From Gammaproteobacteria bacterium (GTDB lineage Bacteria > Pseudomonadota > Gammaproteobacteria > Eutrophobiales > Eutrophobiaceae), in contig OZ242192.1 in assembly GCA_965205955.1 (NCBI GenBank), positions 1,541,118-1,605,117 of the forward strand: a stretch of 64,000 nucleotides of DNA. The letters run 5' to 3'. Below are positions 7,645 to 39,894 of the stretch, in pieces. The notes beneath the pieces were generated by a model. The model was not told where the DNA came from and did not search any database. It saw only the letters and a program-made list of their open reading frames with translations. The position numbers and the translations under genes are program-made. Positions within the stretch are counted from its first letter, which is position 1. Every line of letters begins with the position of its first letter.

Positions 7645-10600
7645 TCAATGTGCGAGATTCTTAATCCCCTGGGTTTCGTTTTCCTGAATTTCGTTTTTGA
7701 TTCTGACAGGTTCCACCACCGGGTTATCCCAGCTTCCGGTAATCGTGTACCGGTGACTCAGCAGTTTATTCAACTGTTTCGGGACGACGTCGAATAATTT
7801 TCCGGCAATGAACAGGCCGGCGCCCACTCCGGTTCCGAGCCCCAGCAGGGTGGCGCCGGCGAGAGGCAGAGTATCGGATATCTTCAAGGTAACAACGGCA
7901 GATTGGTCATAATCTTTGGTCGATAGTCCGGTACGTCCGCTAATTGCTATCTCGGCAGACACCCCCTGCATGATTAGCCCGTCTGTATAGGCGTTGCCGT
8001 GCTCCAGATTGAAACTGCCGTTAATGCTGTTGAAGGCAAACCCCTTGCCGAATATATCGGAAAAATCCAGGGACAGGCGGCGGGGCAGGGTGTGCAGGCT
8101 GAGCAGACCAAATAAACGGCTCGTGGTAGAACTCATATCCAGCAGCTTTCCTCTGCCTATATCTACTTGCATGACACCATCGAGCTTGCTGAGTGAGAAA
8201 TCCATCGGCGTCCCGTCCCAGTTTGCCTCCAAGGCCACAGATAGTTCGCCTTCTTCTATACTGGAATCAGGATAGCCGTATTCATTCAGCATGGCGCCGA
8301 TATCCGCTGCATACATATCGAAATTGAATACGGAGATGGATATATTTTTATCCGGATCTTTATGCCAGGTTCCTGTTCCGCTAATAACCACACTTGCCTT
8401 ACTGAGTGACAATTCTTCAAATTTTATTCCCTTGTCGATCTTGCTGGCCTTGATATCCACCTTGCCGAAATCGATATTATCGTAGATAAGAGTATCGATC
8501 TCTATTGTAAATGCAGGCAGGGAATCCGGGGAAAGATCGATTTTACTCTCCTCATCAGAGGCATTCTTGCTCAAGACAAGACGTTCAATATCGACCGTCG
8601 CCGGTGGCCCCAACGGGGTATCGGGTAGAAATACCTCTCCCCGGACACTCTCGCCACCCAGCCCTATTTTATGACCGTCGGGAACCGAGGAAACAGACAG
8701 TTCAACATTATTGAATTCATTGCCCAGAAAGAAAAGTGTTGCAACATTTATTGCCGCTTCATACTCCTTGAAGCCGGCGGCATCATCTTTATAGTCAGAG
8801 AGTACTTGCAGCCATTTGCTGACATCCAGTGTTTCGATATTTCCTTCAATGCGCAGTTTGCTGTGCCCGCCTGCTGTTTTCCCGGAAGCGGCGGGTATTT
8901 CCTGAGTGGTATCAATAGAGAGATCGGCATGAGCATCATACTGGAAGCGTATATTGCTTATAATGGATTCACCGAATGTGCCGGCAAACAGCATATTTCT
9001 GGTTTCCGCCTCAGTTTTGCCGAGGGGTGCGGGCAAGTCCAGTCCAAGCCCGCGCATATCGGATGCAAGAGAAAAATCGATGCCATTTTGGGTTTTATGC
9101 AATTCCACAATCCATTCGCATTCACCGCTGATGAGATTTTGCAAATCCGGCATTGCCGGGGTAGCGGCGGGATAGGCGGCTATAATCTGATCGGCAATAA
9201 ATGTATTGTCGGCCCTTCCTTGAAGAGTAAACGTAAAAGGCTGATCCTTTCCAACGTGTATACCTGCTTTAACCGGATGAGAGTAGTAGGTCGCATCCAG
9301 ACCGTTTGCGGTGAAGGAGTTTTCAGTGAAGCCAAGGGAGCCGGTTATATTCTGAAGACTGAACCGCGCGTTGTTCAAGCTAAAATCGGCGTCAACCAAT
9401 GCTATCTTGCCGTCCGCGGCGAGCGATCCATCGTTTGTTTTTTTTAATGGTATATCCAGTTCGAGATCGAACTTCATCTCTCCTCCGACGTTGAAATCAG
9501 CAACAGTGTCCAGTGAAAGCGCCTCCGCAAGCGGGCTTTGTTCAATAAACAATGTGAAATCGTGTATATCTCCGAAAAATTTGCTGTCAATCCGCACATG
9601 AGGACGATCAGCGGCGAAATCATCCACGGACAATTGCCCCCGTTCTATTTTTGTCTCATAAATTTTTCCGGCACTGGGAATCACATCGAGACTGCTATTA
9701 CTAACCAACACTTCGGCATCCACTCCGTCAATCGGCGGCCAACCTTCATAATATTCAACCCCGGCATTTTCAACATCGAATACCGCCTTGAATACCCCCT
9801 CCGATTTTACAAAAGGATAATCCGCTGGTCGGCCTCTGAATACCATTCCGGCGGAATTAATCTCCCCCTGGTAAAACAACCGGCTTAGCCACCCCTTGAG
9901 TTTATCCGGCATCTGTGTGGGCAGGTAATCGCTTATCTTTTCCAGTTTAACCTTGCCTGAGGACGCGACAATATCTACAAAAGGCGATGCCTGATCCGCG
10001 TGGAAACTCAAAGAACCCGATAGGTTGATTGGAAAATCCGAGGTGTTTACTTGAAACCGTGGAATTTCAAGCTTGTTGAAAGCATCGAATTTCTTCCAGT
10101 TGAAACGTCCCGTTATTGCAGAAAACCAGATTGGATCATCAAGATAGGAGGGCGCCTCGATGGTGACAAATTCGGAGTCGATAGTAGCCGATATTTGCTC
10201 GGCGTTGCCTGAGAGATTTCCGGACAGGCCGTAAATGGCCGTATTTGTGCCTTTTTCAATAAAGTCGGATTTTGAGAATGTAGCATGATAATTGAAAAGA
10301 TCGGCAGCTTCGCTGCCAGGGAAATGGGAAATGGTAAAATTCTGCAATGCCCCGCCGATGCGGTAATTATTCAAGAAACTACTAATTGCACTATCTTTCC
10401 GGCTAAAAGCCGACATAAAGTCGGTGGCATCTTCAATATTCAAATATTCAAACCAGGCGGAATAGCCGTAATTCTTCTGTTTATCCCGCTGCAATCGAAT
10501 TGCATAATTCGCCTCCGGCCAGGACCTGTTACCGGTTAGCAATTCCCTGGTATCGACATTGATTGACCAGTCGTCCTCATTGACTCGTTTTGCATAAATA

Positions 10601-11496
10601 TCGGCAGTCAGTTTTGGAACAGATAACGCAGTAGCATTCTTTATCATATTCAAATCCCGATAGCTAACCGTGCCGGTCAAATCAGCCAATCCGGCCTGCT
10701 CCCAATTGCTCCAGATTTTGAAACTGGAATCGGTCTGATCAATTTTTAAACCCGCAACGGGCAGAAACCGGTCGAGACGTATATTTTTGGCCGCCAGATA
10801 TATCTTCCCGGACCAGTTTGGTGTCAGCAGATCTCCATTGGCATCCAGTTTTACCTCCAAAAAATCGCCATAGACCCCGGGCAGCTTCGATGAAGCATCG
10901 ATTTGTACCCGATCCCTGTAGGTTTTGATATTCAATGCAACGTCGGCAAAGGCAATTGTATCCCTGCCGAGTTTCTCATCGGTCCAGAGTATTCGGGTAT
11001 CCTGCAGAGTAATGCTATTCTGACTCAGCAGCCATGAGAATAATTCCGGCGCATCGAAATCCTGTCCAGACTGCCCGGGCACTTTCTCATCTGCAATAAT
11101 AAACGCGCCTTCCTTAGTGCGGGTGAGATCCAGATACACCCCGGAAAGAATCAGCTGATCGGATATAATTTTTTTGAAGCGGAGACTTTTTAGCGGATTG
11201 ATATTTATACGCACGCTGTTGAAATGAGAAATAATGCGTTTGTCATCCCTCCCTGGAAATTTTATATCCGATAAAGAAAGCTGGGGCATCCATCCTTGCC
11301 ATCCGATATTTATTTCACTGAAGATGACCGGGTGCCCGATATATTCGCTTACCCGTGCCTGTATCTCATCGCGGTATGTGTCAACCTCGGTCAGCGCCAG
11401 TCGAATAACTGTCGCCGATACCGCCACGGCGAGGATTATTCCCGCAGTCAGATACCAGAGAAAATGATAAATGCGCTTAAAAAAATGCTTTAACAT
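7645..11496 (-). CDS. yhdP: AsmA-family outer-membrane biogenesis protein YhdP (TIGR02099-like)
   Basis: 1283 aa, N-terminal TM anchor, length and N-terminus typical of YhdP. Confidence 0.75.
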   Translation of the reverse strand: MLKHFFKRIYHFLWYLTAGIILAVAVSATVIRLALTEVDTYRDEIQARVSEYIGHPVIFSEINIGWQGWMPQLSLSDIKFPGRDDKRIISHFNSVRININPLKSLRFKKIISDQLILSGVYLDLTRTKEGAFIIADEKVPGQSGQDFDAPELFSWLLSQNSITLQDTRILWTDEKLGRDTIAFADVALNIKTYRDRVQIDASSKLPGVYGDFLEVKLDANGDLLTPNWSGKIYLAAKNIRLDRFLPVAGLKIDQTDSSFKIWSNWEQAGLADLTGTVSYRDLNMIKNATALSVPKLTADIYAKRVNEDDWSINVDTRELLTGNRSWPEANYAIRLQRDKQKNYGYSAWFEYLNIEDATDFMSAFSRKDSAISSFLNNYRIGGALQNFTISHFPGSEAADLFNYHATFSKSDFIEKGTNTAIYGLSGNLSGNAEQISATIDSEFVTIEAPSYLDDPIWFSAITGRFNWKKFDAFNKLEIPRFQVNTSDFPINLSGSLSFHADQASPFVDIVASSGKVKLEKISDYLPTQMPDKLKGWLSRLFYQGEINSAGMVFRGRPADYPFVKSEGVFKAVFDVENAGVEYYEGWPPIDGVDAEVLVSNSSLDVIPSAGKIYETKIERGQLSVDDFAADRPHVRIDSKFFGDIHDFTLFIEQSPLAEALSLDTVADFNVGGEMKFDLELDIPLKKTNDGSLAADGKIALVDADFSLNNARFSLQNITGSLGFTENSFTANGLDATYYSHPVKAGIHVGKDQPFTFTLQGRADNTFIADQIIAAYPAATPAMPDLQNLISGECEWIVELHKTQNGIDFSLASDMRGLGLDLPAPLGKTEAETRNMLFAGTFGESIISNIRFQYDAHADLSIDTTQEIPAASGKTAGGHSKLRIEGNIETLDVSKWLQVLSDYKDDAAGFKEYEAAINVATLFFLGNEFNNVELSVSSVPDGHKIGLGGESVRGEVFLPDTPLGPPATVDIERLVLSKNASDEESKIDLSPDSLPAFTIEIDTLIYDNIDFGKVDIKASKIDKGIKFEELSLSKASVVISGTGTWHKDPDKNISISVFNFDMYAADIGAMLNEYGYPDSSIEEGELSVALEANWDGTPMDFSLSKLDGVMQVDIGRGKLLDMSSTTSRLFGLLSLHTLPRRLSLDFSDIFGKGFAFNSINGSFNLEHGNAYTDGLIMQGVSAEIAISGRTGLSTKDYDQSAVVTLKISDTLPLAGATLLGLGTGVGAGLFIAGKLFDVVPKQLNKLLSHRYTITGSWDNPVVEPVRIKNEIQENETQGIKNLAH

Positions 11497-11922
11497 GAAT
11501 ATATTTCAGAGCAGGGCAATAGCATATTGTTCCCGCGGGCACACAGGCTCCGCTTGGAATGAGACCGGCGTATCAATCGATGATTCAAGTTCACTGCGCC
11601 GGTTGACCCACCATCCAGTAATCGTTTTTGAGTTGTTCAACCCCCCGCACAATTCCGCTGCATATTCTACACAAATCGTTTCCATTGATTTCATTATTCC
11701 TTCCGAGTGCAGTGAATTCGCTCATGGTTCTGTTTGAAAGATCTCTCATGCCGCATGCTTCTGCTATTATAGCGGATTGATACAGCGATTTTCGCTCGAT
11801 TATATCGCATTTCGCATCTGAATATCAGTCCATTGCTCAGGCACGGCTTGTGCCGGGAGAAGCGGGTGGATATCGCCTTGTATTCATCAAAAACGGGGGC
11901 GATACGGGTGGGGGATCACGAG

Positions 11923-12024
11923 GTTTCACTTACCCCACGAAACGAATCCCGCTACACTCCACTGGAAGAATGATTGCACAAGTCATATTTTTTTACTTAC
12001 CCTATGTAAAGTGGTTGAAATAAT
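11923..12024 (+). CRISPR. orphan CRISPR repeat (35/36 identical to the array consensus), a 30-nt spacer, then a degenerate repeat
   Basis: 11923-11958 reads gtttcacttaccccacgaaacgaatccCgctacact, one change from consensus. After 30 nt, 11989-12024 (ttttttttacttaccc...) retains about 11/13 of the repeat 5' end. Confidence 0.6.
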
Positions 12025-12038
12025 AATAGATAATTCTA

Positions 12039-12968
12039 ATGTCTCCGATTACAGATGACAGGGTATTAAAGCTTTTTAAGGCAGTGCCTTTTTTTAGTCA
12101 TATTGAAGATGATAAGGCATTGAGGTTTTTAAGAGAGAAGACTGAAAAAATCGTACTGGAAGCAAATTCCATGGTGTTTGATGAAGGTGATATTGGGGAT
12201 TATATGTATCTGATTCTGGAAGGAATGGTGGACGTATTTTTTAATGATGTGCAACCCGGGGGAAGAAGGTTACGAGTCAGTCTTGATACTTTAAAAGAGG
12301 GAAACTATTTTGGGGAGCGGTCTTTGTTGCCGGAAGGGAGTGGCAAGAGAGGGGCAGGGGCGAAAACTTTAACTAAATCAACTTTTTTGAAAATTGGGAA
12401 AGATGATTTTTTGTCCGCTTTGAAAAAGATAGAAATTGCGGGTTCTGCAGGAAAAAATACTCGTGTTAATTTAGATCCTGAAATAGATTTTCAGGTTATA
12501 GATGTGTTGAGGACACATCGGTTTTGTAAAAATATGGAAATGAATGAGATTATTCATTATCAAGGATGGGCTGATCCTGTATTTTTCAGATCTTCTGAAT
12601 ATCTTTTTAAGAAGGGAGATCCGAGTGATTGTCTCTACTTGGTGATAAATGGGATGGTTGGGATTTATTTTGCCGGATATGACAGGGTTGTTCATAATTT
12701 AGCTCAGTATTCTATGGGTGGTTATTTTGGTGAGCAAAGTCTTTTGTCTCATCATCATATTGGGTATGGGAAGAAAAGAAGAAGCGCCTCTGCAAAAGCA
12801 GAGATTAATTCTTTGTTGTTGAGAATTGGGGAAAGTCAGTTTAAAAAGATCTTGTTGCAAGATGAGAAATTGAAGGAAGCTCTTTTGATAGTTGGGGCTA
12901 AACAAAAATATCTGAGGGCGCTGAGATCGAGAGTTGGCAGGGTAGATACTCATAATAATGGTAGTTAA
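12039..12968 (+). CDS. protein with two cyclic-nucleotide-binding (CAP effector) domains and no output domain
   Basis: Two cNMP-binding signatures (GDIGDYMYLILEGMVDV...FGERSLL and GDPSDCLYLVINGMVGIY...FGEQSLL). GC is visibly lower than the flanks. Confidence 0.75.
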   Translation: MSPITDDRVLKLFKAVPFFSHIEDDKALRFLREKTEKIVLEANSMVFDEGDIGDYMYLILEGMVDVFFNDVQPGGRRLRVSLDTLKEGNYFGERSLLPEGSGKRGAGAKTLTKSTFLKIGKDDFLSALKKIEIAGSAGKNTRVNLDPEIDFQVIDVLRTHRFCKNMEMNEIIHYQGWADPVFFRSSEYLFKKGDPSDCLYLVINGMVGIYFAGYDRVVHNLAQYSMGGYFGEQSLLSHHHIGYGKKRRSASAKAEINSLLLRIGESQFKKILLQDEKLKEALLIVGAKQKYLRALRSRVGRVDTHNNGS

Positions 12969-13126
12969 GGGGTGGAGTGGTCAAGCATTTTGAAGTGATT
13001 CTATAGATAGACCAGTCCAACCAAAGAACCGGCACATATACAGCCCTGATGGTTGTACGCCCGCAGAACATGGTGGCGAAATGCAGCAGAGCGCCCCGCA
13101 CGTACTGAGTGAACGTATGCGCGGGC

Positions 13127-13558
13127 GTTTCACTTACCCCACAAAACGAATCCTGCTATACTATTTGTCACTCTCACTTATGCACCCGGCATGTTTCACT
13201 TACCCCACAAAACGAATCCTGCTATACTCCCTACCCCTTTGACTGATGCGGAACTTCTGTTTCACTTACCCCACGAAACGAATCCTGCTACACTAAACCC
13301 CTGGAACGGCCGCCAAGAGTTGCAGTTTCACTTACCCCACGAAACGAATCCTGCTACACTCATGATCCGATCCTCGACGATCCGTTTTGTGTTTCACTTA
13401 CCCCACGAAACGAATCCTGCTACACTGCTCTAACCACTATATCGCAGACCAGCGCGGTTTCACTTACCCCACGAAACGAATCCTGCTACACTCAGCGTCC
13501 AACATTCGTTCGGGCAACAGTTGTTTCACTTACCCCACGAAACGAATCCTGCTACACT
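13127..13558 (+). CRISPR. CRISPR array, 7 x 36-bp repeats (gtttcacttaccccacgaaacgaatcctgctacact) with six 30-nt spacers
   Basis: Exact repeat copies at 13259, 13325, 13391, 13457 and 13523. Repeats at 13127 and 13193 share two identical substitutions (ccacAaaacg, gctaTact). All spacers are unique and 30 nt. Confidence 0.95.
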
Positions 13559-13586
13559 AGGATTCGTCTTGTGGCTTGTTTTTATT
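13535..13586 (+). terminator. hairpin formed by the last repeat plus an inverted copy of its centre, followed by a T-tract (plus-strand intrinsic terminator candidate)
   Basis: ccacgaaacgaatcct / aggattcgtcttgtgg pairs 14 of 16 with an 8-nt loop, then cttgttttta. Confidence 0.45.
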
Positions 13587-13630
13587 GGGAAAATTTGTAT
13601 TTGCAGCCAGAAAAATTGCGAATTGGTCTA

Positions 13631-16600
13631 TCATTTTTCCGGCCCGGGGCAGGGTTTTAGCTTGGTATAAACGGCTTGTGTTTCAGCGCCTGCTTTATTT
13701 TTGAGATATGCCCCCCTTGAGTTAAGTTTTATAATTTGCCACTCGCCAGGTCTTTGGGGATTATCAATCCTTACCCAGTCTCTTTTGCGAAAGCTGGCAA
13801 TGCGCTTTGCGCCGCTTGGTATGTCTTTTTCATATCGAGGATTGAGCGGCTGCTTGCCTGTTGTCGCCTTGCTGCGATAATAAAATGCGTCAGTCTCACG
13901 AATAACTTCTTTTTTCGTTTTGCCCTTCCTGCCGGTTTCTTCATATTCAAAAACATGCGCCACCGCCCATGGATTTTCCTTGCCAAAATAATGCACAGCT
14001 TCCCCGCGCTTGATTCCATGCAGGTTTTTCGGGTCAGAGGGTTGATGAAGCCTGATGATCCGGGTACTGCGCACGTTCTTGTGATACAGGCAATGGTCTT
14101 CATTTTGTTTTAAAAACCAGTCGACCGGAATGCATTCTTCTTCCTTGGTAATCTCCAGTTCAGTAAAGGCAGCTTGCATTGCCTCGCGGATTTTTGTATC
14201 TCTTATTTTATCCAAATCTTTGTATGGCAGCCGGTCAAGCGGCACCCGCTGCAACACCTGCGGTTGCCCGTCTATCTTCCGCAAGCGCAACGGCTCGCGT
14301 TTGGTTTTAGCAACCGTGCTTTTGCTTTTGTTTTTTTTGTCTTCAATATACCAGTCGTCTCGTATAGTCGGAGCCTGCCAATCATTTTGGTCTGCATTCC
14401 ATTCACCGGCGGGGCAGGCTGTGTTGGCATCCAAAACGGGTATGACGGTTTTGTGCGCTTCTTGCCGGCGTCTGTTTCTGTCCCTGGCGTTGTTGTCGAT
14501 ATCCCGCTCCAAACGGGCTATTTTTTTCCAATCTATATTGGAAGCAATGACAATGGCATCCAGCGCATGATTGAATTTCCGAATCGAGTCGTTTTCATCT
14601 ATTTTAATCTCTTCGCCTTCCTTGCCGTATTTGCTGTCACGTATGCGAACCGGCCATTTACCGGTTTTTTGATGCTGCCGCAAAACCCATTTTTGAAAAC
14701 TCATATGCGGAAACCAGATTTTTCTAAAAAAAGCCGTCTCCCCGGCGCGGATATGGGGAAAAAGCTCGTTATCATCGTGATTTCGTCCCGTCTTTTCAGC
14801 CAGCACAGAACGCAATAATTTTGTGCCAAACATAGTTTGCCCCGCACCCGCCAGCATATCCTCGGGGAGACGGAACTCCCCATTTTGCAAGCGTTTTTCA
14901 ATATAGGCCGCCTTGTCAGGGTTGTTTTGGCGCAAATTATTTAAAACATTTTTATCGGGGGATAAAGAGAGATGTTTCCATTTTTCTATATTGCAGAGAT
15001 CATGCATTGCAACCTTGTTCAAGGCGGTATTGCCTCCGCCTGATTTTTTGGGAAACAGATGATCGGTGTGAATGTTGTATCCAAGCTGTTGGCCGCATTT
15101 GAAGCATAGCCCGCCTTGCTCTTCGGCCAATTCCTCTTTGTCTGAATCTCTTTTGCTTTGATAGCGTACCTTGTTTTTGAATTGGCGGCCTTCGGCAGCG
15201 GATAGGGCGGCAATATCGAAGCGCGCGCTTTCAATGCCAAAATGTGTGGCGTTTTCGAGCGTTGCGCCGTGCCTTCCGAGTATTTTTTCAACTTCTTTGA
15301 CGCAGCGTGTGATTTTTTGCTGCAAAGAGGGTGGGGCATCTGACAATACGGCCTCACTTCGGGCATTGATGCGTTGCCAATCATCGGTATTTGTGCCGTC
15401 TGGCCGGCGCAACAATTCCAGCCTTTTCTGTAAATGGTGGATACACATACTGGCACGACCGCCCATCGTGCCGGCGGCAATATCGCGCAAAATTTCTTTT
15501 TTGCTTTTACCGGTTTTCTCGCCATTTTCCTTTGGCACGCTTGGATTGCGGGGGAAGGTAAAAAAAGCATTCCAGTGTTCTTCCTTGATTATTTCATTTT
15601 TTTCTTTGGCTTCAAAATCAACACAGGCCAGCAATTCGTTAATCTCATCATTTGTATATTTGCGTTCAATCAGGTCATCGCCTCTTTTTTCACCTTTCAT
15701 GCTCTTAATCTGCCGTGCTTCCGCCTCAAAAACTATCTTGCGTAGATCGCCCCGGCCTCGTTTGGCAACGTTCTTGCCACAACGCTCCCCGCTGGTTGTC
15801 CGCACCGCGCATTTTTTCATTTTACGATTGGCAAAACGCTTTTTTCGGTATTCGTGCCCGATGATCGCCGGCGCCTGTTTTTTCCAGCCCTCTTTGATGG
15901 TCGCCTCGGTTTCTCCGGTCTTTTGCGCCAACACTTTGGCTTTTTCAATAACAGCCTCATCCGCAAAGGCTTCATCCATTCGCTCGTGCAGTTCCTCAAG
16001 CATTGCTTCACGATGGCGATTTTTATGTGGACGGTAAAGTTCTCCTTTCTTGTATAATTCTTCTCCCGACTTTAACCCCAACATAACCAGAATGTATTCA
16101 CTAATGTCTTTTCTTGCCTTTTCATTTTGAGGCGGTTTGCCCAGGCAGGCTTCGATGCGTTCATCTATCCAATCAGAAATTTGGTCACTATCAGCGTCTT
16201 CTATAATGCCTTCAATAGTGCCACGTTGGGCGTAAGCCTCGTCAAGTTGCGGGCTTGCCCCTTTCTTTTCCAGCGTTGTAATTTTCTTGAGGGTCTCGCT
16301 GTATATACCCAAGCATGAGCATTCTGCTGCAAGCCAGTGTATAATTTCAGATGGTTGGTCTGTGGCATCGCCATGTTCGGCAACTTCTATCGCACATTTG
16401 CAATTTTCTTCATCTTTCTTGAATTTTTTCACTGCACTTGCATCCGCGCCTTTTTTGGGGTTTTTGGGTGTGCGCTTATTACGCTTGACAGGTGCGCCAC
16501 TGAACATTAAAAATTCATCAATTCGGCGGACCGTAGGTGTGGCGTTGCCTTTATCGTCTGCCAGAATTTCGGAAATAGAGGCATAATCCCAGCCGCGAAA

Positions 16601-16918
16601 ATGCGCCAGCGCATACAGCCGATTGCCGATGAATTTTTTATCGTCTTTGCTGATTTTGCCGCCGCCACCCTTGCGCCATTCACCGCGCGGCTCAATGCCC
16701 ATGCCTTTGAGAAAGGCTTTAAAATCGCGGAGGCGTTTTCTTTTGCTGTCTTTACTGCGTCGCGCACTGCGGTTTTGGCGTCTTGTGCTCAGGTCGCCTG
16801 TTAATTGCTGGTGCTTAATGACAGCAAAATCCAGCACATCATTCTTGTCATTCAGTAGCGCTATTCCTGAATAACCATATCCAAAATCAATGCCGACACG
16901 AAACTCGTTCAGGGGCAT
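13631..16918 (-). CDS. cas9: Cas9-like RNA-guided nuclease (divergent, type II-C-sized)
   Basis: RuvC-I (VGIDFGYGYSGIALL), Arg-rich bridge helix (RRQNRSARRSKDSKRKRLR), RuvC-II (HFGIESARFDI), HNH (CFKCGQQ..IHTDHLFP..NTALNKVAMHDLCN) and RuvC-III (KFNHALDAIVIA) are all present in Cas9 order. It is adjacent to the 36-bp-repeat array. Confidence 0.8.
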   Translation of the reverse strand: MPLNEFRVGIDFGYGYSGIALLNDKNDVLDFAVIKHQQLTGDLSTRRQNRSARRSKDSKRKRLRDFKAFLKGMGIEPRGEWRKGGGGKISKDDKKFIGNRLYALAHFRGWDYASISEILADDKGNATPTVRRIDEFLMFSGAPVKRNKRTPKNPKKGADASAVKKFKKDEENCKCAIEVAEHGDATDQPSEIIHWLAAECSCLGIYSETLKKITTLEKKGASPQLDEAYAQRGTIEGIIEDADSDQISDWIDERIEACLGKPPQNEKARKDISEYILVMLGLKSGEELYKKGELYRPHKNRHREAMLEELHERMDEAFADEAVIEKAKVLAQKTGETEATIKEGWKKQAPAIIGHEYRKKRFANRKMKKCAVRTTSGERCGKNVAKRGRGDLRKIVFEAEARQIKSMKGEKRGDDLIERKYTNDEINELLACVDFEAKEKNEIIKEEHWNAFFTFPRNPSVPKENGEKTGKSKKEILRDIAAGTMGGRASMCIHHLQKRLELLRRPDGTNTDDWQRINARSEAVLSDAPPSLQQKITRCVKEVEKILGRHGATLENATHFGIESARFDIAALSAAEGRQFKNKVRYQSKRDSDKEELAEEQGGLCFKCGQQLGYNIHTDHLFPKKSGGGNTALNKVAMHDLCNIEKWKHLSLSPDKNVLNNLRQNNPDKAAYIEKRLQNGEFRLPEDMLAGAGQTMFGTKLLRSVLAEKTGRNHDDNELFPHIRAGETAFFRKIWFPHMSFQKWVLRQHQKTGKWPVRIRDSKYGKEGEEIKIDENDSIRKFNHALDAIVIASNIDWKKIARLERDIDNNARDRNRRRQEAHKTVIPVLDANTACPAGEWNADQNDWQAPTIRDDWYIEDKKNKSKSTVAKTKREPLRLRKIDGQPQVLQRVPLDRLPYKDLDKIRDTKIREAMQAAFTELEITKEEECIPVDWFLKQNEDHCLYHKNVRSTRIIRLHQPSDPKNLHGIKRGEAVHYFGKENPWAVAHVFEYEETGRKGKTKKEVIRETDAFYYRSKATTGKQPLNPRYEKDIPSGAKRIASFRKRDWVRIDNPQRPGEWQIIKLNSRGAYLKNKAGAETQAVYTKLKPCPGPEK

Positions 16919-17164
16919 ATCGTCCTCTCTTGGTTATTAAGTCTCTCCCTAACCCTTAAATGGAAACATTCACGTACTAGAGCTTGCCACTGGGAGAGAA
17001 TAAGGCAGGTAGACCAGTGAGCGCTTCCTGGGATTTTTTTCACTTACCAACATCACGGTATTATAGGCTCGGCAAGTTGTCAAGCCTCTCAAACATTCAG
17101 CAATTCCCCCGCATCCGGGTGCAGTCATTTGACATGCAGGCACAGGCTGGCTAGACTTTTCGTT

Positions 17165-17350
17165 ATTGGGTGCTCGGACGCTTTTCGGCGAAAGAGTTAA
17201 ACGGGAAGCAGGTGCGTCATCGACAAAGCCTGCGCTGCCCCCGCAACGGTAGATGAGTCAAGTTCAATTATTTGCGCCACTGTGCATGGCATGGGAAGGC
17301 GATTGAACGGATGCGCAGCATCACTCATAAGCCCGGAGACCGGCCCGATA
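17165..17350 (+). promoter_or_regulatory. cobalamin (AdoCbl) riboswitch
   Basis: GGGAAGCAGGTGCG...GCTGCCCCCGCAACGGTAGA...GCCACTG...GGGAAGG core and the B12-box AGCCCGGAGACCGGCC sit immediately upstream of the TonB receptor. Confidence 0.8.
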
Positions 17351-17362
17351 ATCATTTATTGA

Positions 17363-19288
17363 ATGATTACGGAGGGTATTCATCTTATGAGCTATTGTTC
17401 ATACGGTTTTATCTTGAAAATAAGCGCCGCCGCCTGTTTGTTTCCGGCTTTTACGGCCCTCGCGGAGCAAAGAGAGGCAACGGAGGTTATGGTTGTTACC
17501 GCTTCTCAGCGGGCATTGCCGAGATCATCAATCGGTTCTGCGATCACTGTGATTACCGCCGACGATATTCAAAGGCGCGGGGGTATTTATGCCGCGGATA
17601 TGCTCCGGCAGGTCCCCGGGTTTGCGCTCAGCCGCAGCGGCACTTTTGGCACGGTGACCAATGCGCGTGTGCGCGGTGCGGAAGGCAATCATACCCAGGT
17701 ATTGATCGATGGTATCGAGGCCAATGATCCTTCCACCGATTCGGCGTTTAATTTTGGTTCTCTAACTCTGGATAATGTGGAGCGCATAGAAATTATTCGC
17801 GGCCCGCAAAGCGCATTGTCCGGCAGTGATGCGATAGGGGCAGTGGTGCATATTATTACCCGCAGGGGGCAGGGCGCGTTTTCTTTACGGGGAAATATCG
17901 AGGGTGGGGCATTCGATACGGTGAAAACGTCGATAGGCAGTGCCGCCGGCAATGAATATATCAATTATAATATAAATGCCGAGGTATTGAGCACCAATGG
18001 CATCAATGTCGCCAGGACCGGCACGGAGGATGACGGTCATCACAATCGTACCTATGATCTCAAGCTGGGGATTGACCCGTCCGATATTCTGAATCTGGAT
18101 TTTATTGTCCGGCATGTCAATACGGATACGGATACGGATCCGCAGCCGTTTCCATCTCCTGTTATTACCGATGCCCCGGGCAATAAAACGGCTATAGAGC
18201 GGACTTATTTGAAAGGCGGGCTGGGTCTTTCATTATTGGACGGACGCTGGCAACATGGGTTGAGCGTCGCCTCGACCGGCACACGCAATCAATTCGAGTC
18301 CAGCAACTTCGGGCGCTCATTCAACAACGGCAGACGGGTGAAGTATGCCTATAAAAGCAATTTCAATTTCGATACGCCCGGTATTCACACTTCCCGTCAT
18401 GCCTCGTTTCTATTCGAATATCAGGATGAGACTGCCCGGGGCAGCTTTGTTGGCGGTCGATCCAGGGTAGGGTTTATCTCCAGGAGTTATGCCGGCGAAT
18501 ATCATACCGGGTTGTATGATCTTCTGTTTGTCACTGCGGGCATACGCTTCGATGATAATGAGTTCTTCGATAACGCCGCAACCTATCGCGTTGCCAGCGC
18601 ATATAAGTTTCGCGCAAGCGATATGCGTCTGCATGCCAGCTACGGCAAGGGGATTAAAAACCCGACTATTAGCGAATTATTCGGCAATTTTCCAACCTTC
18701 AGCGGGAACCCGGATTTACAGCCGGAAAGTTCGATAGGATGGGACGCGGGCATTGAAATGGTATGGATGGATGGCCGCCTGCTGGTCGATGCTACGTATT
18801 TCAATAATGCGATCACCGATCAAATCACCGGGTTTGTTTTCTCAGGCGGCAATACGGTTGCCAATAATTCTTCGACAAACCATATTTACGGGCTTGAAAC
18901 AACTTTGGATTACGTCTGGAACCCAAAGCTGACACTCTCCGGCGTTTATACGTATACGGGTGCCAATGATCAGGAATTAATTCGCCGCGCCCGGCATATC
19001 GCTTCATTCAATCTGAATTATTCGTTTCTCGATAACAGGGCGAATATCAATCTGGGAGTCCAGTACAACGGCGAGCAGGAGGATTATATATTTGGCAACC
19101 GGCGAACCCGAACCACGCTGGATGCTTTTACATTGGTGAATGTAAATGCAAGCTATCGGATTAACAATGCAGTGAGCGTGTATGCCAGGGTGGAAAATAT
19201 ATTCGATGATGACTATGAAGAAGTATACAGTTATCGCGCCCCGGGGATTGGCGGCTTTGCCGGTATAAAGCTGAATTTAAATCCATGA
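17363..19288 (+). CDS. btuB: TonB-dependent outer-membrane receptor, BtuB-like
   Basis: Signal peptide, TonB box (EVMVVTAS), plug and barrel domains, C-terminal aromatic residue. Follows the B12 riboswitch. Confidence 0.85.
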   Translation: MITEGIHLMSYCSYGFILKISAAACLFPAFTALAEQREATEVMVVTASQRALPRSSIGSAITVITADDIQRRGGIYAADMLRQVPGFALSRSGTFGTVTNARVRGAEGNHTQVLIDGIEANDPSTDSAFNFGSLTLDNVERIEIIRGPQSALSGSDAIGAVVHIITRRGQGAFSLRGNIEGGAFDTVKTSIGSAAGNEYINYNINAEVLSTNGINVARTGTEDDGHHNRTYDLKLGIDPSDILNLDFIVRHVNTDTDTDPQPFPSPVITDAPGNKTAIERTYLKGGLGLSLLDGRWQHGLSVASTGTRNQFESSNFGRSFNNGRRVKYAYKSNFNFDTPGIHTSRHASFLFEYQDETARGSFVGGRSRVGFISRSYAGEYHTGLYDLLFVTAGIRFDDNEFFDNAATYRVASAYKFRASDMRLHASYGKGIKNPTISELFGNFPTFSGNPDLQPESSIGWDAGIEMVWMDGRLLVDATYFNNAITDQITGFVFSGGNTVANNSSTNHIYGLETTLDYVWNPKLTLSGVYTYTGANDQELIRRARHIASFNLNYSFLDNRANINLGVQYNGEQEDYIFGNRRTRTTLDAFTLVNVNASYRINNAVSVYARVENIFDDDYEEVYSYRAPGIGGFAGIKLNLNP

Positions 19289-24301: not shown

Positions 24302-25471
24302 TCATGCATCCCAATCATCCCTTTCGGAAAACAGTTTTTTTGTTATTTCCCTGCGCTGCTGCGCCTCCAGAGACAGTGTTGCCACCGGGCGCGCCTCCAG
24401 ACGGCGGATGCCGATTTCTTCGCCGGTTTCTTCGCAATAGCCATAGCTGCCGTCTTGAATGCGCAATAATGCGGCCTCGATTTTCTTTAATAATTTCCGC
24501 TCCCGGTCACGAGTACGCAATTCGAGCCCGAATTCTGTTTCCTTGGTGGCGCGATCAGAGGGATCGGCAAAATTAGGGGCATCTTCCTTCATGTGACTGA
24601 CAGTCTGCTCTATCTCTTCTACGAGTTCGCGTTTCCGGTCCAAGAGGATTTGTTTGAAATGCTCCAGTTGCTTGGGGCTCATGTACTCCTCATTCTTTTT
24701 TTCCTGATACGGCATGCGTTTCTTTTTAACGGGTGCCACGCGCGCCCTGGCAACGGATGTTTTATCTGTCTTTGTTATTTTTCTTAGCGTCTTTGCCGCC
24801 TTTTTCTTCGTGAGTGCTTTTTTGGCTGCCTTTTTCTTCGCGAGTGCTTTTTTGGCTGCCTTTTTCTTCGCGAGTGCTTTTTTGGCCGCCTTTTTCTTCG
24901 CGAGTGCTTTTTTGGCTGCCTTTTTCTTCGCGAGTGCTTTTTTAGCTGCTTTTTTCTTCGCGAGTGCTTTTTTCTTCGCGAGTGCTTTTTTGGCCGCCTT
25001 TTTCTTGACGGATGCTTTTTTAGCCGTCTTTTTCTTGACGGATGCTTTTTTGGCCGTCTTTTTCTTGACGGGTGCTTTTTTGGCCGCCTTTTTCTTGACG
25101 GGTGCTTTTTTGGCCGCCTTTTTCTTGACGGATGCTTTTTTGGCCGCCTTTTTCTTGACGGATGCTTTTTTGGCTGTCTTTTTCTTGACGGGTGCTTTTT
25201 TGGCTGTCTTTTTCTTGACGGGTGCTTTTTTGGCTGTCTTTTTCTTGACGGATGCTTTTTTGGCTGTCTTTTTCTTGACGGATGCTTTTTTGGCCGCCTT
25301 TTTCTTCGCAGATACCTTTTTGGCCACTTTCTTTTTCGATACCTTCTTTTTGGCCGCGGTCTTCCCGGCTGCTTTCTTCTTCGCAACCCGGCTCCCCGTG
25401 GTTTTACTGCTGGAAACTATTTTCTTCTTTTTGACGATCTTTTTAGCAACCTTCTTTTTTTTTGCTGGCAT
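24302..25471 (-). CDS. dksA: DksA-family RNA polymerase-binding protein fused to a ~250-aa lysine/alanine-rich histone-H1-like N-terminal repeat region
   Basis: The C-terminal 130 aa align to DksA (PYQEKKNEEYM..., FGLELRTRDRERKLLKKIE, GYCEETGEEIGIRRLEARP). The N-terminus is about 25 copies of a 10-aa KKKxAKKAxV unit in the same frame. An internal Met (MPYQEKK) is an alternative start. Confidence 0.7.
   Translation of the reverse strand: MPAKKKKVAKKIVKKKKIVSSSKTTGSRVAKKKAAGKTAAKKKVSKKKVAKKVSAKKKAAKKASVKKKTAKKASVKKKTAKKAPVKKKTAKKAPVKKKTAKKASVKKKAAKKASVKKKAAKKAPVKKKAAKKAPVKKKTAKKASVKKKTAKKASVKKKAAKKALAKKKALAKKKAAKKALAKKKAAKKALAKKKAAKKALAKKKAAKKALAKKKAAKKALTKKKAAKTLRKITKTDKTSVARARVAPVKKKRMPYQEKKNEEYMSPKQLEHFKQILLDRKRELVEEIEQTVSHMKEDAPNFADPSDRATKETEFGLELRTRDRERKLLKKIEAALLRIQDGSYGYCEETGEEIGIRRLEARPVATLSLEAQQRREITKKLFSERDDWDA
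24796..25330. repeat. about eighteen tandem 30-bp direct repeats in two subfamilies, coding for the K/A-rich region
   Basis: The unit cgagtgcttttttggc(t/c)gcctttttcttcg alternates with gacgg(a/g)tgcttttttggc(c/t)g(c/t)ctttttcttg. Confidence 0.9.
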
Positions 25472-33840: not shown

Positions 33841-34665
33841 GTGATGAGTAAAGAAATTAGTCCGTACGTTACCAAGCTGCATCAAGGCAATGCTTATTGG
33901 ATGGCCCGCCTTTCCCAGGCCGTTTATAAAAATAAAGATGGCTCCCAAGACCCAGACAATGCCGCAATTCTGAAGGATATTCGGTCAGAAGATAAAGGCT
34001 TCAAATCCGTAATCGGCGCGAACAAAAATAGCGCACAAGCCATACTGGTTGAGCATGAAAAATTTCTATGCATGGCGTTTCGAGGAACCAATGAGTTAAG
34101 CGATTGGTTAGATAATATAAATGCATTTTCCACAGATGTGCTTTTTGGCAGTTTTCACCGCGGATTTTGGAATTCTGTCGCTGATGTATGGGATAAAATA
34201 AATGGCAGATATGAGAAACTCCGCAAAAAGAAGAAACGCCCGTTATTTATAACCGGCCATAGCCTTGGGGGAGCAATGGCCACGATAGCAGCCGCTCGTT
34301 TCATCCATGATGATAGACCCTTTATCTCTGTGTATACTTTTGGACAGCCAAGATGCGCGGGCCGTGATGCTGCAAGAATATTTAATACGGAAGCGGGTGG
34401 GCGTTGTCACCGATTTCAAAATAACGAAGACATCGTTACTCGTGTTCCTGCAAGACTGATGGGCTATAGCCATGTTGGGCACTGTCTTTATATTGACGAA
34501 GACAAGGCTATCCACAGTGATCCTGGATTTTGGTTTAGGTTTTTAGATGTTGTTGAAGGCGCCTATGATAGTATTAAAACAACAGGGTCGGTTGGTATGA
34601 TAAAAGACCATGATATGCAAAAATATATGAACGCCGTTAAGAAATGGGACTATCATAAATCCTGA
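33841..34665 (+). CDS. class 3 (fungal-type) lipase family alpha/beta hydrolase
   Basis: Nucleophile elbow GHSLGGAMA and downstream Asp/His. Confidence 0.75.
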   Translation: MMSKEISPYVTKLHQGNAYWMARLSQAVYKNKDGSQDPDNAAILKDIRSEDKGFKSVIGANKNSAQAILVEHEKFLCMAFRGTNELSDWLDNINAFSTDVLFGSFHRGFWNSVADVWDKINGRYEKLRKKKKRPLFITGHSLGGAMATIAAARFIHDDRPFISVYTFGQPRCAGRDAARIFNTEAGGRCHRFQNNEDIVTRVPARLMGYSHVGHCLYIDEDKAIHSDPGFWFRFLDVVEGAYDSIKTTGSVGMIKDHDMQKYMNAVKKWDYHKS

Positions 34666-35006
34666 TTATTGAAGACACCTTATGGTGATGGCCAAACCCC
34701 CGCTGTTGAGGCGAAAGCGGCTGGAATTGCAGGTAAGTTGCGCCTGAAAAAAGTGGGATGGGGGAAGAAAAGCCCCGGAGGCGGTGAAACAGCGCTTTTT
34801 GAGTCGAGTTCATCGGCATCAATGCCACATATCTGAATAGTAAAAGAGCGTTTCGCATTGAAACTAAAGTTTTCATGTGTTAATCAGATGTTCCGTAATA
34901 GTAAATACTATAGCGGCAACGCCTATCAACCTACCAGATTCAGATTCGAAAGTTTAGCCGGAGAGTTTGACCGGCTGGCAACGACAGCATATACAATGAG
35001 CCGACA

Positions 35007-38000: not shown

Positions 38001-38201
38001 CAAACCCAATACTTCACCGACGTCCCCGAAACCGCCTGGAACTTCTACATCGGCGGCTACCAACCCGCCCAAAAATGGCTAAAAGACCACAAAACCCGCA
38101 CCCTGACCCACAACGACATCATCCACTACCAGAAAATCATCGTCGCCCTGGTGGAAACAGAGCGGTTGATGGGGGAGATTAATGCGGAGATAGACTTTTA
38201 G
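35007..38201 (+). CDS. type IIL/IIG restriction-modification enzyme of the MmeI family (N-terminal PD-ExK nuclease, gamma-class N6-adenine methyltransferase, C-terminal TRD)
   Basis: PD...EAK motif (APDFVLT...GYIEAKD) near the N-terminus, SAM motif DPATGTGTF and catalytic NPPY (VVIGNPPYRGESE); 1064 aa. Confidence 0.7.
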   Translation: MNIQEYLKKLGQQLSAGNATEHTHRPTLQTLLEHLLKGVSVTNEPKQIECGAPDFVLTRNQIPLGYIEAKDIGGNLDNQGYKEQLNRYTKSLDNLIFTNYTEFRLFRDGKQVAAVSIAGESGGRIKPQRGNFDAFTDLLKTFAEYEGQTITSANDLARRMAVKARMLAGVITKALKYDESKHGDPGSAGEMGSMLQNQLAAFQKHLIHDIDADNFADIYAQTVAYGMFAARLHDPTPATFSRKEAAELIPVTNPFLRKFFQHIAGYDLDERIRWIINDLADVFRAADVGELMKDYGKATQRNDPFIHFYETFLGEYDPKLRKGRGVYYTPEPVVNFIVRAVDEILQTEFAFSEGLAHTGKTTIEIEGQPVGKKYKKEIHKVQILDPATGTGTFLAAIVKHIREQYFTRQQGVWPDYVQTDLIPRLNGFEVLMASYAMAHTKLEMVLRDSGCELDKRLRIFLTNSLEEHHPDTGTLFAQWLSAEANEANFIKRDTPVMVVIGNPPYRGESENKGAWIASLMQDYKQEPGGGKLQERNAKWLNDDYVKFIRYGQYYIDRTGEGVLAYINNHSFLDNPTFRGMRWSLLQSFDTIYIIDLHGNSKKKETAPDGSMDKNVFDIQQGVSINLFVKTGKKNKGAPARVFHYDLYGLRENKYQFLWDNNLEQVRFKELKPQAPQYFFVVKDYGLQEEYETGFSVNDLFSENSVGIVTARDNFTIYHTPKELKTAIANFRAMDDATAREKYSLGKDVKEWKTNLARQDLEKNVFDNNNDNPVPIHYRPFDVRYTYYTGHSKGFHCRPREEIMRHFLAGDNVGLIFHKREELQIDFAHIFVSRLITEHSVTSIKTINYQAPLYLYPDTKQQSLNNKQAREPNLDHDIRKTIADGLNLHFTSEKEDDNNTFAPIDLLDYIYAVLHSPAYRQRYNELLKTDFPHVPYPTDKNQFRKLVTLGGELRTLHLLESPTLNSLITGYPETGDNVVIKPEYEITDTKNRLGKVQINQTQYFTDVPETAWNFYIGGYQPAQKWLKDHKTRTLTHNDIIHYQKIIVALVETERLMGEINAEIDF

Positions 38202-38323
38202 AATAACCAAGCATATTCTTCCGTGAGACGTAATTGCTCTAACTAGACAGTCGTCACTGTTAGCGAGGAGAAGACTAAAATCGTGAGGGAGACATCGCTG
38301 GAATCGGGATGATTTCTTCGTAA

Positions 38324-39867: not shown

Positions 39868-39894
39868 CAGGATTCGGTCGTCGGCAGATCGAAA

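What the first reader, a model, noticed from the sequence alone, without database searches (positions are those of the whole stretch)
12039..12968. Tandem cNMP-binding-domain gene sitting between two pieces of CRISPR array
A low-GC gene encoding only two CAP-type cyclic-nucleotide-binding domains is flanked on the left by an orphan repeat, a 30-nt spacer and a degenerate repeat. On the right lies the main array, 160 nt away, on the same strand.

Either a mobile gene inserted into an ancestral array, or a second-messenger sensor has been recruited to the type II locus. This would be conceptually like CARF/SAVED sensors in type III, but is not described for Cas9 systems.
Basis: inference. Interest (0 to 1): 0.55.

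Follow-up and report, generated by a model that had tools for sequence, protein, structure and literature searches.

The report
Passenger cNMP-receptor gene inside a CRISPR locus
A real gene for a small cyclic-nucleotide receptor lies between a lone CRISPR repeat and the main repeat array of a rare Cas9-like system. It is seen there in one bacterial species only, and nothing indicates that it works with the CRISPR system.

Summary
The pieces are a lone repeat (11923-11958, 35/36), a 30-31 nt spacer, a degenerate half-repeat (11990-12011, 16/22) and a low-GC 309-aa ORF (12039-12968). Then come a 158-nt gap and a 7-repeat array, all on the + strand, beside a 1095-aa Cas9d/IscB-like gene.

The ORF encodes two PKA-R-like cNMP-binding domains. 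Both keep the ligand-contacting Glu and Arg, and there is no output domain.

The recruited-sensor reading is not supported.
- The closest homologues are a 53% paralogue in the same genome and its 57-60% orthologue elsewhere. Both sit in a conserved tolB-pal / M48-peptidase context with no CRISPR.
- Three distant relatives of the effector have no cNMP gene within 10 kb.
- The sister species lacks the whole 5.65-kb cassette.
- The gene's GC3 is 33%, against 48% for the effector gene and 57% for the paralogue. This points to a separate, foreign origin.

The lone repeat is the only strong pairing partner of the array repeats in 8 kb. It is therefore the best tracrRNA anti-repeat candidate, probably derived from an old repeat-spacer-repeat unit.

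The most likely reading is a passenger gene that landed in the non-coding gap of a minimal type II locus. Interest is low to moderate. The rare effector family is the more notable item.

The parts
11497..11922 (-). Non-coding left end of the cassette. It may hold the 3' tail of a minus-strand tracrRNA (about 11922 down to 11800) and a promoter-like site facing yhdP.
   Evidence: No similarity to the yhdP-TonB intergenic region of the sister species. The minus strand folds better than shuffles (z = -2.9). The best promoter-like hit of the region is CTGATA-18-TATAAT at 11828->11799 on the minus strand. A 59-62 aa ORF with no family is also called here.
11923..11958 (.). Lone repeat (35/36 to consensus, T28C). 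It is the best candidate template for a tracrRNA anti-repeat if read from the minus strand.
   Evidence: locates it. The duplex scan of 10500-18500 on both strands gives -68 kcal/mol here, against -27 or weaker everywhere else and a background of -9.9 +/- 4.1. It is identical in three strains whose arrays share no complete spacer.
11959..11989 (+). Fixed 30-31 nt spacer-like segment.
   Evidence: Conserved in all three strains with one SNP in L008. No match elsewhere in the window or in viral contigs.
11990..12011 (+). Degenerate half-repeat. It may be the left junction of the low-GC insertion.
   Evidence: 16/22 match, unique in 128 kb searched, and in phase with a 67-nt period.
12039..12968 (+). 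Gene for a 309-aa stand-alone tandem cNMP-binding protein (PKA-R-like, no output domain).
   Evidence: Pfam PF00027 twice. PDB sequence hits to PKA-R and PKG tandem CNB domains and Foldseek top hits of the same kind. Glu/Arg of both phosphate-binding cassettes are invariant (E93, R104, E232, R248). The ORF is intact in three strains. GC3 is 33.5%.
12969..13126 (+). 158-nt GC-normal (54%) gap between the gene and the array. It is leader-like, with no predicted terminator.
   Evidence: It is 97.5-98% conserved among strains.
13127..13558 (+). CRISPR array of 7 repeats of 36 nt and 6 spacers of 30 nt. The repeats end in TGCTACACT or TGCTATACT, which resembles an extended -10 box.
   Evidence: Arrays of 13 and 3 repeat matches (lone repeat included), sharing no complete spacer, are found in strains L002 and L008.
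13535..13586 (+). Terminator-like hairpin. The interior of the last repeat pairs with AGGATTCGTCTTGTGG and is followed by CTTGTTTTTATT.
   Evidence: Inverted repeat I10 has 16-nt arms and an 8-nt loop. The arms pair perfectly, 16/16, in L002.
13631..16918 (-). Gene for a 1095-aa Cas9d/IscB-like RuvC-HNH effector, convergent with the array.
   Evidence: Pfam RRXRR. NCBIfam Cas9d scores 122 bits, below its cut-off of 375, and IscB scores 56 bits. PDB hits include 8zq9/9auf, which are Cas9d by my own knowledge of those entries, not from the table. Catalytic residues are invariant in alignment A1.
16919..17150 (.). Right end of the cassette, upstream of the effector gene. The cobalamin riboswitch at 17151-17362 marks the return to conserved synteny.

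Best explanation
The ORF at 12039-12968 is an intact gene for a stand-alone receptor built from two PKA-R-like cyclic-nucleotide-binding domains. Inferred mechanism: it binds cAMP or cGMP through the conserved Glu/Arg cassettes and acts by ligand-dependent protein-protein contact, because it has no DNA-binding or enzymatic domain.

It is an extra, compositionally foreign copy of a family whose core member sits beside tolB-pal-cpoB and an M48 peptidase in this genome and in a related one.

The copy lies inside a 5.65-kb species-specific cassette inserted between yhdP and a B12-riboswitch/TonB-receptor gene. The cassette is a minimal type II locus without an adaptation module. It holds a Cas9d/IscB-like effector, a convergent array probably transcribed on the + strand, and a lone repeat.

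The lone repeat most likely serves as the template of the tracrRNA anti-repeat, read from the minus strand. It probably derives from an old repeat-spacer-repeat unit.

The cNMP gene most likely landed, with its AT-rich upstream region, in the non-coding gap between that element and the array. It is a passenger. It may be co-transcribed into the array, but it has no dedicated CRISPR role.

Shown: the anatomy, domain content, composition, synteny, and the lack of CRISPR association among homologues.
Inferred: ligand binding, strand of transcription, tracrRNA identity, and passenger status.

The confidence of 0.5 is for the whole statement, including the tracrRNA reading of the lone repeat. Passenger status alone, whatever the lone repeat is, I put at about 0.8.
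For: Gene and domains.

Foreign composition: GC3 is 33.5%, against 48.5% for the effector gene, 56.7% for the paralogue and a window mean of 54%.

Family context:
- P0002 is 53% identical, lies in the same 2.56-Mb genome, and sits next to tolB-pal-cpoB and an M48 peptidase.
- P0138 is 57-60% identical to P0002 and has the same synteny in another genome.
- In the NJ tree the window copy falls outside that pair.
- No arrays lie near these homologues.
- Stand-alone tandem-CNB proteins of 275-300 aa recur among the best representatives.

The cassette is an indel. In the sister species (MnmA 79% identical) yhdP and the riboswitch/TonB receptor are separated by 418 unrelated nt.

Effector relatives L005-L007 carry cas1-cas2-cas4 and/or Csx12 but no PF00027 gene.

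Lone repeat as anti-repeat:
- It is the only strong duplex partner in 8 kb.
- It is conserved in three strains while the array spacers turned over.

+ strand transcription of the array:
- The repeat starts GTTTCA, like the repeats of the relatives when read convergent to their effector genes.
- An extended -10-like box sits at the repeat 3' end. This is read from the sequence. Repeat-embedded promoters are known in type II-C (PMC5965381).
- A hairpin plus T-run follows the last repeat.

No terminator is predicted between the gene and the array.
Against: - No RNA data exist, so the strand and the tracrRNA assignment are inference.
- No intrinsic terminator is predicted on the minus strand downstream of the anti-repeat.
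- 35/36 complementarity is higher than in most known tracrRNAs (own knowledge).
- The lone repeat is followed in phase by a degenerate repeat. It therefore looks like a plain array fragment as much as a tracrRNA gene.
- The gene has been kept intact in three strains, always with the cassette, on the array strand. That is also what a functional link would look like.
- Variation among the three strains is only 3 synonymous and 6 non-synonymous sites. This is too few to show either selection or decay.
- The comparative sample is small. The effector family has 8 clusters and contexts were read for 4.
Confidence: 0.5

Rival explanations
1. The gene is a passenger, but the left element is a dead fragment. 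An ancestral array was split when the low-GC DNA inserted into its second repeat. The lone repeat, spacer and half-repeat are then a non-functional relic, and the tracrRNA lies elsewhere or the system is defective.
For: - The layout is repeat, then a 31-nt spacer, then a half-repeat in phase.
- The AT-rich block starts about 13 nt into that repeat.
- Signs of erosion in sister strains: a 2-repeat array with a 23-nt spacer in L008 and an effector frameshift in L002.
- No cas1/cas2/cas4 in the window.
Against: - The other half of the broken repeat is absent on the right.
- The 158-nt right flank has normal GC and is not repeat-derived.
- No alternative anti-repeat exists anywhere in the cassette.
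- The lone repeat is 35/36 intact while its neighbour is largely lost.
- The L002 frameshift is an A7/A6 homopolymer difference and may be a read error.
Confidence: 0.3
2. The cNMP-binding protein is a recruited accessory of this Cas9d-like system. It senses cAMP, cGMP or a cyclic pyrimidine and modulates the effector or crRNA production, analogous in logic to CARF or SAVED sensors of type III.
For: - It lies inside the cassette, on the array strand, 158 nt upstream, with no predicted terminator.
- It is retained intact with the cassette in three strains.
- The whole cassette is one indel relative to the sister species.
- Ligand-binding residues are conserved.
Against: - The association is seen in one species only.
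- The closest homologues sit in a conserved non-CRISPR context.
- Effector relatives lack such a gene.
- Its composition differs sharply from the effector gene, which implies separate acquisition.
- There is no cyclase and no effector domain in the cassette.
- A full-text search for the three terms together returned only one, unrelated paper.
Confidence: 0.07
3. The gene is a counter-defence or decoy cargo of mobile-element origin. In this reading it is a domain-only cyclic-nucleotide sponge that buffers cNMP-based immune signals such as Pycsar, and it was stranded in the CRISPR locus.
For: - Foreign low-GC composition.
- The architecture is binding domains only.
- Its CNB domains score against the CNB parts of Pycsar effector models (E about 1e-10 to 1e-11).
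Against: - The PADLOC hits are generic domain hits.
- There are no PHROG matches.
- No prophage or mobile-element genes flank it.
- Its nearest relatives are chromosomal core genes of the same bacterial clade.
Confidence: 0.04

Closest known systems
Regulatory subunits of cAMP- and cGMP-dependent kinases (PKA-R, PKG tandem CNB-A/B), and uncharacterised bacterial stand-alone tandem-CNB proteins of about 280-300 aa
   Same: Two cNMP-binding beta-barrel domains in tandem. The phosphate-binding-cassette Glu and Arg are present in both. The best PDB sequence and fold matches span both domains. Many bacterial proteins of the same length and architecture exist.
   Different: There is no dimerisation/docking domain or kinase-inhibitor segment, and no partner kinase gene in the locus. 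Arg is followed by Gly instead of Ser/Thr in domain 1, and the cassette of domain 2 is longer. The ligand and partner are unknown.
CRP/FNR (CAP) family transcription factors
   Same: The cNMP-binding domain is of the CAP type, with NCBIfam CRP and FNR-type domain-level hits. cAMP-CRP is known to regulate cas genes in some bacteria (own knowledge, not tested here).
   Different: There is no C-terminal helix-turn-helix domain. There are two CNB domains instead of one. All CRP-family scores are far below the curated cut-offs (45 bits against 266).
CARF and SAVED sensors of type III CRISPR / CBASS
   Same: Only the concept is shared: a small-molecule second-messenger receptor encoded in a CRISPR locus.
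   Different: The fold is unrelated. There is no Cas10 or other cyclase in the locus, no fused effector domain, and no recurrent association with cas genes.
tracrRNA genes of type II systems (anti-repeat = lone degenerate repeat near the array), especially the type II-C layout of N. meningitidis and C. jejuni
   Same: A lone repeat copy lies in an intergenic region next to the array. The array is convergent with the effector gene. A promoter-like box sits at the 3' end of each repeat (PMC3737331, PMC5965381).
   Different: Complementarity is almost perfect (35/36). The lone repeat is followed by its own spacer and a half-repeat. It is separated from the array by a protein-coding gene. No terminator is predicted, and expression is untested.
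Type II-D (Cas9d) CRISPR-Cas
   Same: The best family-model and PDB matches of the effector are Cas9d and IscB. Distant relatives carry cas1-cas2-cas4, as described for II-D (PMC12669027).
   Different: The score is well below the NCBIfam cut-off (122 against 375). The protein is larger than the solved matches (1095 aa against 746-942). There is no adaptation module in this window. Phylogenetic placement was not done.

Membership tests
PKA-R-like tandem cNMP-binding proteins | Two consecutive cNMP-binding (PF00027) domains | tested here: met
   Pfam finds 2 stretches, E = 1.7e-32. PDB alignments span residues 15-272. Foldseek top hits are PKA-R and PKG CNB-A/B over 265-303 columns. The model is only moderate (pLDDT 65).
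PKA-R-like tandem cNMP-binding proteins | Phosphate-binding cassette with the conserved Glu and Arg that contact the cyclic nucleotide | tested here: met
   FGE(93)...R(104) and FGE(232)...R(248) are invariant in alignment A2. Actual binding is not testable here.
PKA-R-like tandem cNMP-binding proteins | N-terminal docking/inhibitor segment and a cognate catalytic subunit | tested here: not met
   The first CNB domain starts within about 10 residues of the N-terminus. No kinase gene lies in the cassette.
CRP/FNR transcription factors | C-terminal helix-turn-helix DNA-binding domain after the CNB domain | tested here: not met
   No HTH family is found by Pfam or NCBIfam. CRP/FNR models match only the CNB part and fall far below their cut-offs.
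CRISPR-associated ligand sensors (CARF / SAVED type accessory proteins) | Recurrent genomic association with cas genes or arrays across lineages | tested here: not met
   Homologues P0002/P0008, P0138 and P0003 have no cas genes or arrays nearby. Effector relatives L005-L007 have no PF00027 gene. The sample is small.
CRISPR-associated ligand sensors (CARF / SAVED type accessory proteins) | A signal-producing enzyme (Cas10 or other cyclase) in the same system | tested here: not met
   The cNMP gene and the effector are the only called genes of the cassette apart from a 59-aa ORF (11506-11694, -) with no family. Cyclases elsewhere in the genome could not be examined.
Pycsar effectors | A CNB domain fused to a TIR or transmembrane effector, with an adjacent PycC cyclase | tested here: not met
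   PADLOC hits cover only the CNB portion of the models. There is no effector domain and no cyclase gene adjacent.
tracrRNA (for the lone repeat at 11923-11958) | An anti-repeat able to base-pair with every array repeat, located in an intergenic region of the locus | tested here: met
   Duplex energy is -68 kcal/mol. It is the only strong partner in 10500-18500 on either strand.
tracrRNA (for the lone repeat at 11923-11958) | Own promoter and terminator, and expression as a small RNA bound by the effector | tested here: inconclusive
   On the minus strand there is only a weak promoter-like site at 12061->12033 and no predicted terminator. No RNA data exist. No Rfam family matches.
Type II-D (Cas9d) system (for the locus) | The effector scores as Cas9d and groups with Cas9d in phylogeny | tested here: inconclusive
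   The NCBIfam Cas9d model is the best hit but scores 122 bits against a cut-off of 375. PDB Cas9d chains match at E = 1e-15 to 1e-24 over parts only. No tree was made.
Type II-D (Cas9d) system (for the locus) | A cas1-cas2-cas4 adaptation module in the locus | tested here: not met
   There is no tblastn hit to the Cas1/Cas2/Cas4 of relatives anywhere in the 64-kb window. The module is present in relatives L005 and L006.

The most novel reading that the evidence does not exclude
A cyclic-nucleotide receptor was captured by a minimal Cas9d-like system. It couples Cas9-type interference, or expression of the crRNA array it reads into, to the cell's cAMP or cGMP state. This would be the first second-messenger-sensing accessory of a type II system.
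Probability: 0.06. Interest if true: 0.75.

Novelty: new member of a known kind. Interest (0 to 1): 0.27.

Why it matters
If the gene were a true accessory, it would extend second-messenger control from type III to Cas9-type CRISPR systems. The evidence here makes that unlikely.

What remains useful is more modest.
- It is a clear example of a foreign gene lodged between a probable tracrRNA gene and its array, a layout that automatic CRISPR annotation would misread as two arrays.
- It gives a compact, adaptation-less cassette of a very rare Cas9d/IscB-like effector lineage (8 clusters among 5.8 billion proteins). Its guide RNA architecture could be worked out from only about 1.7 kb of non-coding sequence.

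Tried and rejected
- Exact look-up of the window protein and of P0002 found no contigs. Contexts were reached through the cluster members P0006 and P0008 instead.
- The repeat core searched in JGI metagenome contigs gave 0 hits.
- The effector searched in the genome collection gave nothing as a single sequence. As a profile it gave only the Ca. Oxydemutator MAG already in hand, and nothing in metagenome contigs.
- Three spacer cores, including the fixed spacer, were searched in viral contigs to obtain protospacers, a PAM and the strand. All gave 0 hits.
- No self-targets were found in any held sequence.
- Rfam at E <= 1 over the locus returned the flanking cobalamin riboswitch plus one chance-level hit (ctRNA_p42d, E = 0.93). 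No omega-RNA/HEARO or tracrRNA family matched.
- blastn and nhmmer of the cassette's non-coding parts against the loci of distant relatives found no shared RNA, so no covariation test was possible.
- I first considered an imperfect inverted repeat copy at 11703-11742 as an anti-repeat. It scores only -29 kcal/mol, near the background tail, so I dropped it.
- I considered the 16-nt inverted match after the last repeat (13559-13574) as an anti-repeat, by analogy with the element between cas4 and the array in L005 and L006. I rejected it in favour of a terminator, because it pairs in cis with the last repeat across an 8-nt loop and is followed by a T-run.
- A gapped match of the repeat's 3' part at about 13016-13036 is out of phase and at chance level.
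- dN/dS among the strains rests on too few substitutions to be informative.
- The AlphaFold model is only moderate (pLDDT 65). I used it for domain-level fold assignment only.

Full report
**1. What is there**

The window holds a repeat, GTTTCACTTACCCCACGAAACGAATCCTGCTACACT, that occurs eight times on the + strand and never in shuffles.
- Seven copies form an array at 13127-13558 with a 66-nt period and six 30-nt spacers.
- One copy stands alone at 11923-11958 with a single mismatch, T28C.
- A sequence starting 67 nt after the start of the lone copy matches the first 22 nt of the repeat at 16/22. It is the only such match on either strand of the 64-kb window apart from the true repeats. Only its first 13 nt are convincing, and its 3' part is unrelated.

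Between this mini-unit and the array lies the ORF 12039-12968 on the same strand. It ends 158 nt before the first array repeat.

**2. The gene**

- The 309-aa product has two PF00027 cNMP-binding domains and nothing else.
- CRP/FNR models match only the nucleotide-binding part and fall far below their cut-offs. No helix-turn-helix is found.
- PDB sequence hits are PKG and PKA-R tandem CNB modules spanning both domains.
- The Foldseek top 50 are the same proteins. The model is moderate (pLDDT 65), so I use it only at domain level.
- The Glu and Arg of both phosphate-binding cassettes are invariant among homologues. Ligand binding is therefore plausible, but it is inferred.
- The ATG at 12039 is supported by protein-level similarity to the paralogue from residue about 5 onward. 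There is no obvious Shine-Dalgarno sequence or strong promoter upstream.

**3. The neighbours and the edges of the locus**

- To the right, convergent with the array, is a 1095-aa RuvC-HNH protein.
  - Its best models are Cas9d (122 bits, cut-off 375) and IscB.
  - Its PDB matches are HNH-nuclease chains that include 8zq9/9auf, which are Cas9d structures by my own knowledge of those entries.
  - Catalytic residues are invariant in its family alignment.
- No cas1, cas2 or cas4 is present anywhere in the window.
- To the left is yhdP (7645-11496, minus strand).
- To the right of the effector is a cobalamin riboswitch (17151-17362) followed by a TonB-dependent receptor.
- In the sister species (MnmA 79% identical), yhdP and the riboswitch/receptor are direct neighbours. 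They are separated by 418 nt that have no similarity to the window.

The whole interval from 11497 to about 17150 (5.65 kb) is therefore one species-specific cassette. It contains a non-coding stretch, the lone repeat, the cNMP gene, the array and the effector gene.

**4. Is the gene tied to CRISPR elsewhere?**

A word-indexed search of 5.8 billion proteins found only four clusters.
- The gene itself, 97.7-99.4% identical in three further assemblies.
- A 53% paralogue in the same 2.56-Mb genome.
- A 36% homologue on a 4.6-kb contig.
- A partial planctomycete protein.

The paralogue lies between tolB-pal-cpoB and an M48 peptidase. A 57-60% orthologue of the paralogue from another genome has exactly that synteny. 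In an NJ tree the window's copy falls outside this pair. None of these loci has an array.

An exhaustive HMMER search shows many further stand-alone tandem-CNB proteins of 275-300 aa at 28-33% identity. The architecture is therefore not unusual, although it is uncharacterised.

Conversely, the effector family has eight clusters. The three distant loci I could read carry cas1-cas2-cas4 and/or a Csx12 gene but no cNMP-binding gene within 10 kb. The only genome-collection hit is the Ca. Oxydemutator MAG already seen.

**5. Origin of the gene**

| Sequence | GC | GC3 |
|---|---|---|
| cNMP gene (12039-12968) | 37.7% | 33.5% |
| Effector gene | 47.3% | 48.5% |
| Paralogue P0002 | 48.7% | 56.7% |
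| Window ORFs of at least 250 aa (mean) | 49.0% | 54% (sd 6.7) |

(All values.)

- The low-GC block runs from about 11960-12003 to about 12990. It is bounded on the left by the half-repeat and on the right by a GC-normal 158-nt segment.
- This fits a separate, later acquisition from a lower-GC donor that carried the same CNB subfamily.
- It is not a single-genome event. Three strains 97-99.6% identical over the locus share it, with divergence like that of the flanks.
- The ORF is intact in all three. Variation is 3 synonymous and 6 non-synonymous sites, which is too few to judge selection.
- No mobile-element genes or target-site duplications are present. The missing half of the putative broken repeat is not found on the right.

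**6. What the lone repeat is**

Every type II system needs a tracrRNA. [quoted passage not shown]

A duplex scan of 10500-18500 on both strands finds only one strong partner for the array repeat. It is the complement of the lone repeat, at -68 kcal/mol. Everything else is at -27 or weaker, within the tail of a background of -9.9 +/- 4.1.

The lone unit is fixed in all three strains. Their main arrays have 7, 12 and 2 repeats and share no complete spacer.

Three observations suggest the array is read on the + strand.
- The repeat begins GTTTCA, like those of the relatives when read convergent to the effector gene.
- Each repeat ends in TGCTACACT or TGCTATACT, an extended -10-like box. This is read from the sequence. 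Repeat-embedded promoters are documented for type II-C (PMC5965381). The similarity to the N. meningitidis box TGCTACAAT is from my own knowledge.
- The last repeat forms a 16-bp hairpin with the following AGGATTCGTCTTGTGG, and a T-run follows.

With a + strand crRNA, the tracrRNA would be read from the minus strand across 11958->11923 into the structured region to its left (z = -2.9).

Weak points of this reading:
- No minus-strand terminator is predicted, and the only promoter-like site is weak.
- Complementarity is nearly perfect.
- An in-phase half-repeat makes the element look like a plain array remnant.

Both readings can hold together, because tracrRNAs have been proposed to derive from degenerate repeats (PMC3737331). 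I put tracrRNA template at about 0.5 and dead fragment at about 0.3.

**7. How it most likely works**

The cNMP protein is most likely a generic cyclic-nucleotide receptor that acts through protein contacts. This follows from its domain content. Its position is most simply explained as a passenger in a non-coding gap of the cassette.

It is on the array strand with no predicted terminator in the 158-nt gap. Read-through could therefore add to pre-crRNA transcription. The lone repeat's own -10-like box lies 80 nt upstream of the ATG and might contribute to the gene's expression. Both points are untested inferences.

**8. Verdict**

- Observation: confirmed.
- 'Inserted foreign gene': partly supported.
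- 'Recruited second-messenger sensor': not supported. I leave it about 6%.

The finding is a new member of a known kind of protein in an odd place, so interest is low to moderate. The rare Cas9d/IscB-like effector lineage deserves its own follow-up. In relatives it sits beside a Csx12 gene or a cas1-cas2-cas4 module.

Noticed in passing
window 13631-16918 (-); L005 10001-13966; L006 10001-14113; L007 10001-13963: The effector belongs to a very rare Cas9d/IscB-like lineage, with 8 clusters among 5.8 billion proteins. Distant members (1306-1370 aa) lie next to cas1-cas2-cas4 (Ca. Oxydemutator MAG OZ241883). In two loci they lie next to a Csx12 (type II-B Cas9) gene, which gives two Cas9-like genes in one locus.
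   Followed up: partly
window 13127-13558, the last 9 nt of each repeat; lone repeat position 28 (11950): The repeats end in TGCTACACT or TGCTATACT, an extended -10-like box pointing into the next spacer, as in type II-C arrays. The only mismatch of the lone repeat (T28C) removes the TG of this box, and it does so in all three strains.
   Followed up: partly
window 13535-13586 (+): The interior of the last repeat pairs with the 16 nt that follow it across an 8-nt loop. A T-run follows, so the structure is terminator-like and is built from the terminal repeat. The arms pair perfectly (16/16) in strain L002.
   Followed up: partly
L002 11090-11850; L008 11365-11456 (read on -): Sister strains carry main arrays of 12 and 2 repeats that share no complete spacer with the window. 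L002 has one spacer duplicated. L008 has a 23-nt spacer that shares 11 nt with window spacer 5. Spacers have turned over although no cas1/cas2 lies nearby.
   Followed up: partly
L002 11923-15209: The effector gene is split into 635-aa and 442-aa ORFs by an A7->A6 homopolymer difference. This is either a long-read error or an inactivating or phase-variable frameshift.
   Followed up: partly
window 17151-17362 (+): A cobalamin riboswitch (102 bits) lies upstream of a TonB-dependent receptor, a DUF6580 gene and a cobalamin adenosyltransferase gene. It marks the right edge of conserved synteny.
   Followed up: yes
window 11506-11694 (-): A small ORF of 59-62 aa lies between the lone repeat and yhdP. 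It was called as a gene in two sister strains and matches no family in Pfam, PADLOC or PHROGs. It lies in the part of the cassette that is absent from the sister species.
   Followed up: partly
window 24302-25471 (-), tandem repeats 24795-25355: A DksA-type protein carries a long N-terminal histone-H1-like (HC2) lysine/alanine repeat region, encoded by 30-nt tandem repeats.
   Followed up: no
window 33841-41571 (+): A second defence-like island holds a class-3 lipase, a 1064-aa Type ISP restriction-modification enzyme, a low-GC HATPase-domain protein and an ATP-dependent DNA ligase.
   Followed up: no
L003/L004 10001-10894; L012 8001-8900: The core paralogue of the cNMP gene sits at a conserved position between tolB-pal-cpoB and an M48 peptidase in two genomes. 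This hints at an envelope-related role for this uncharacterised stand-alone tandem-CNB family.
   Followed up: partly
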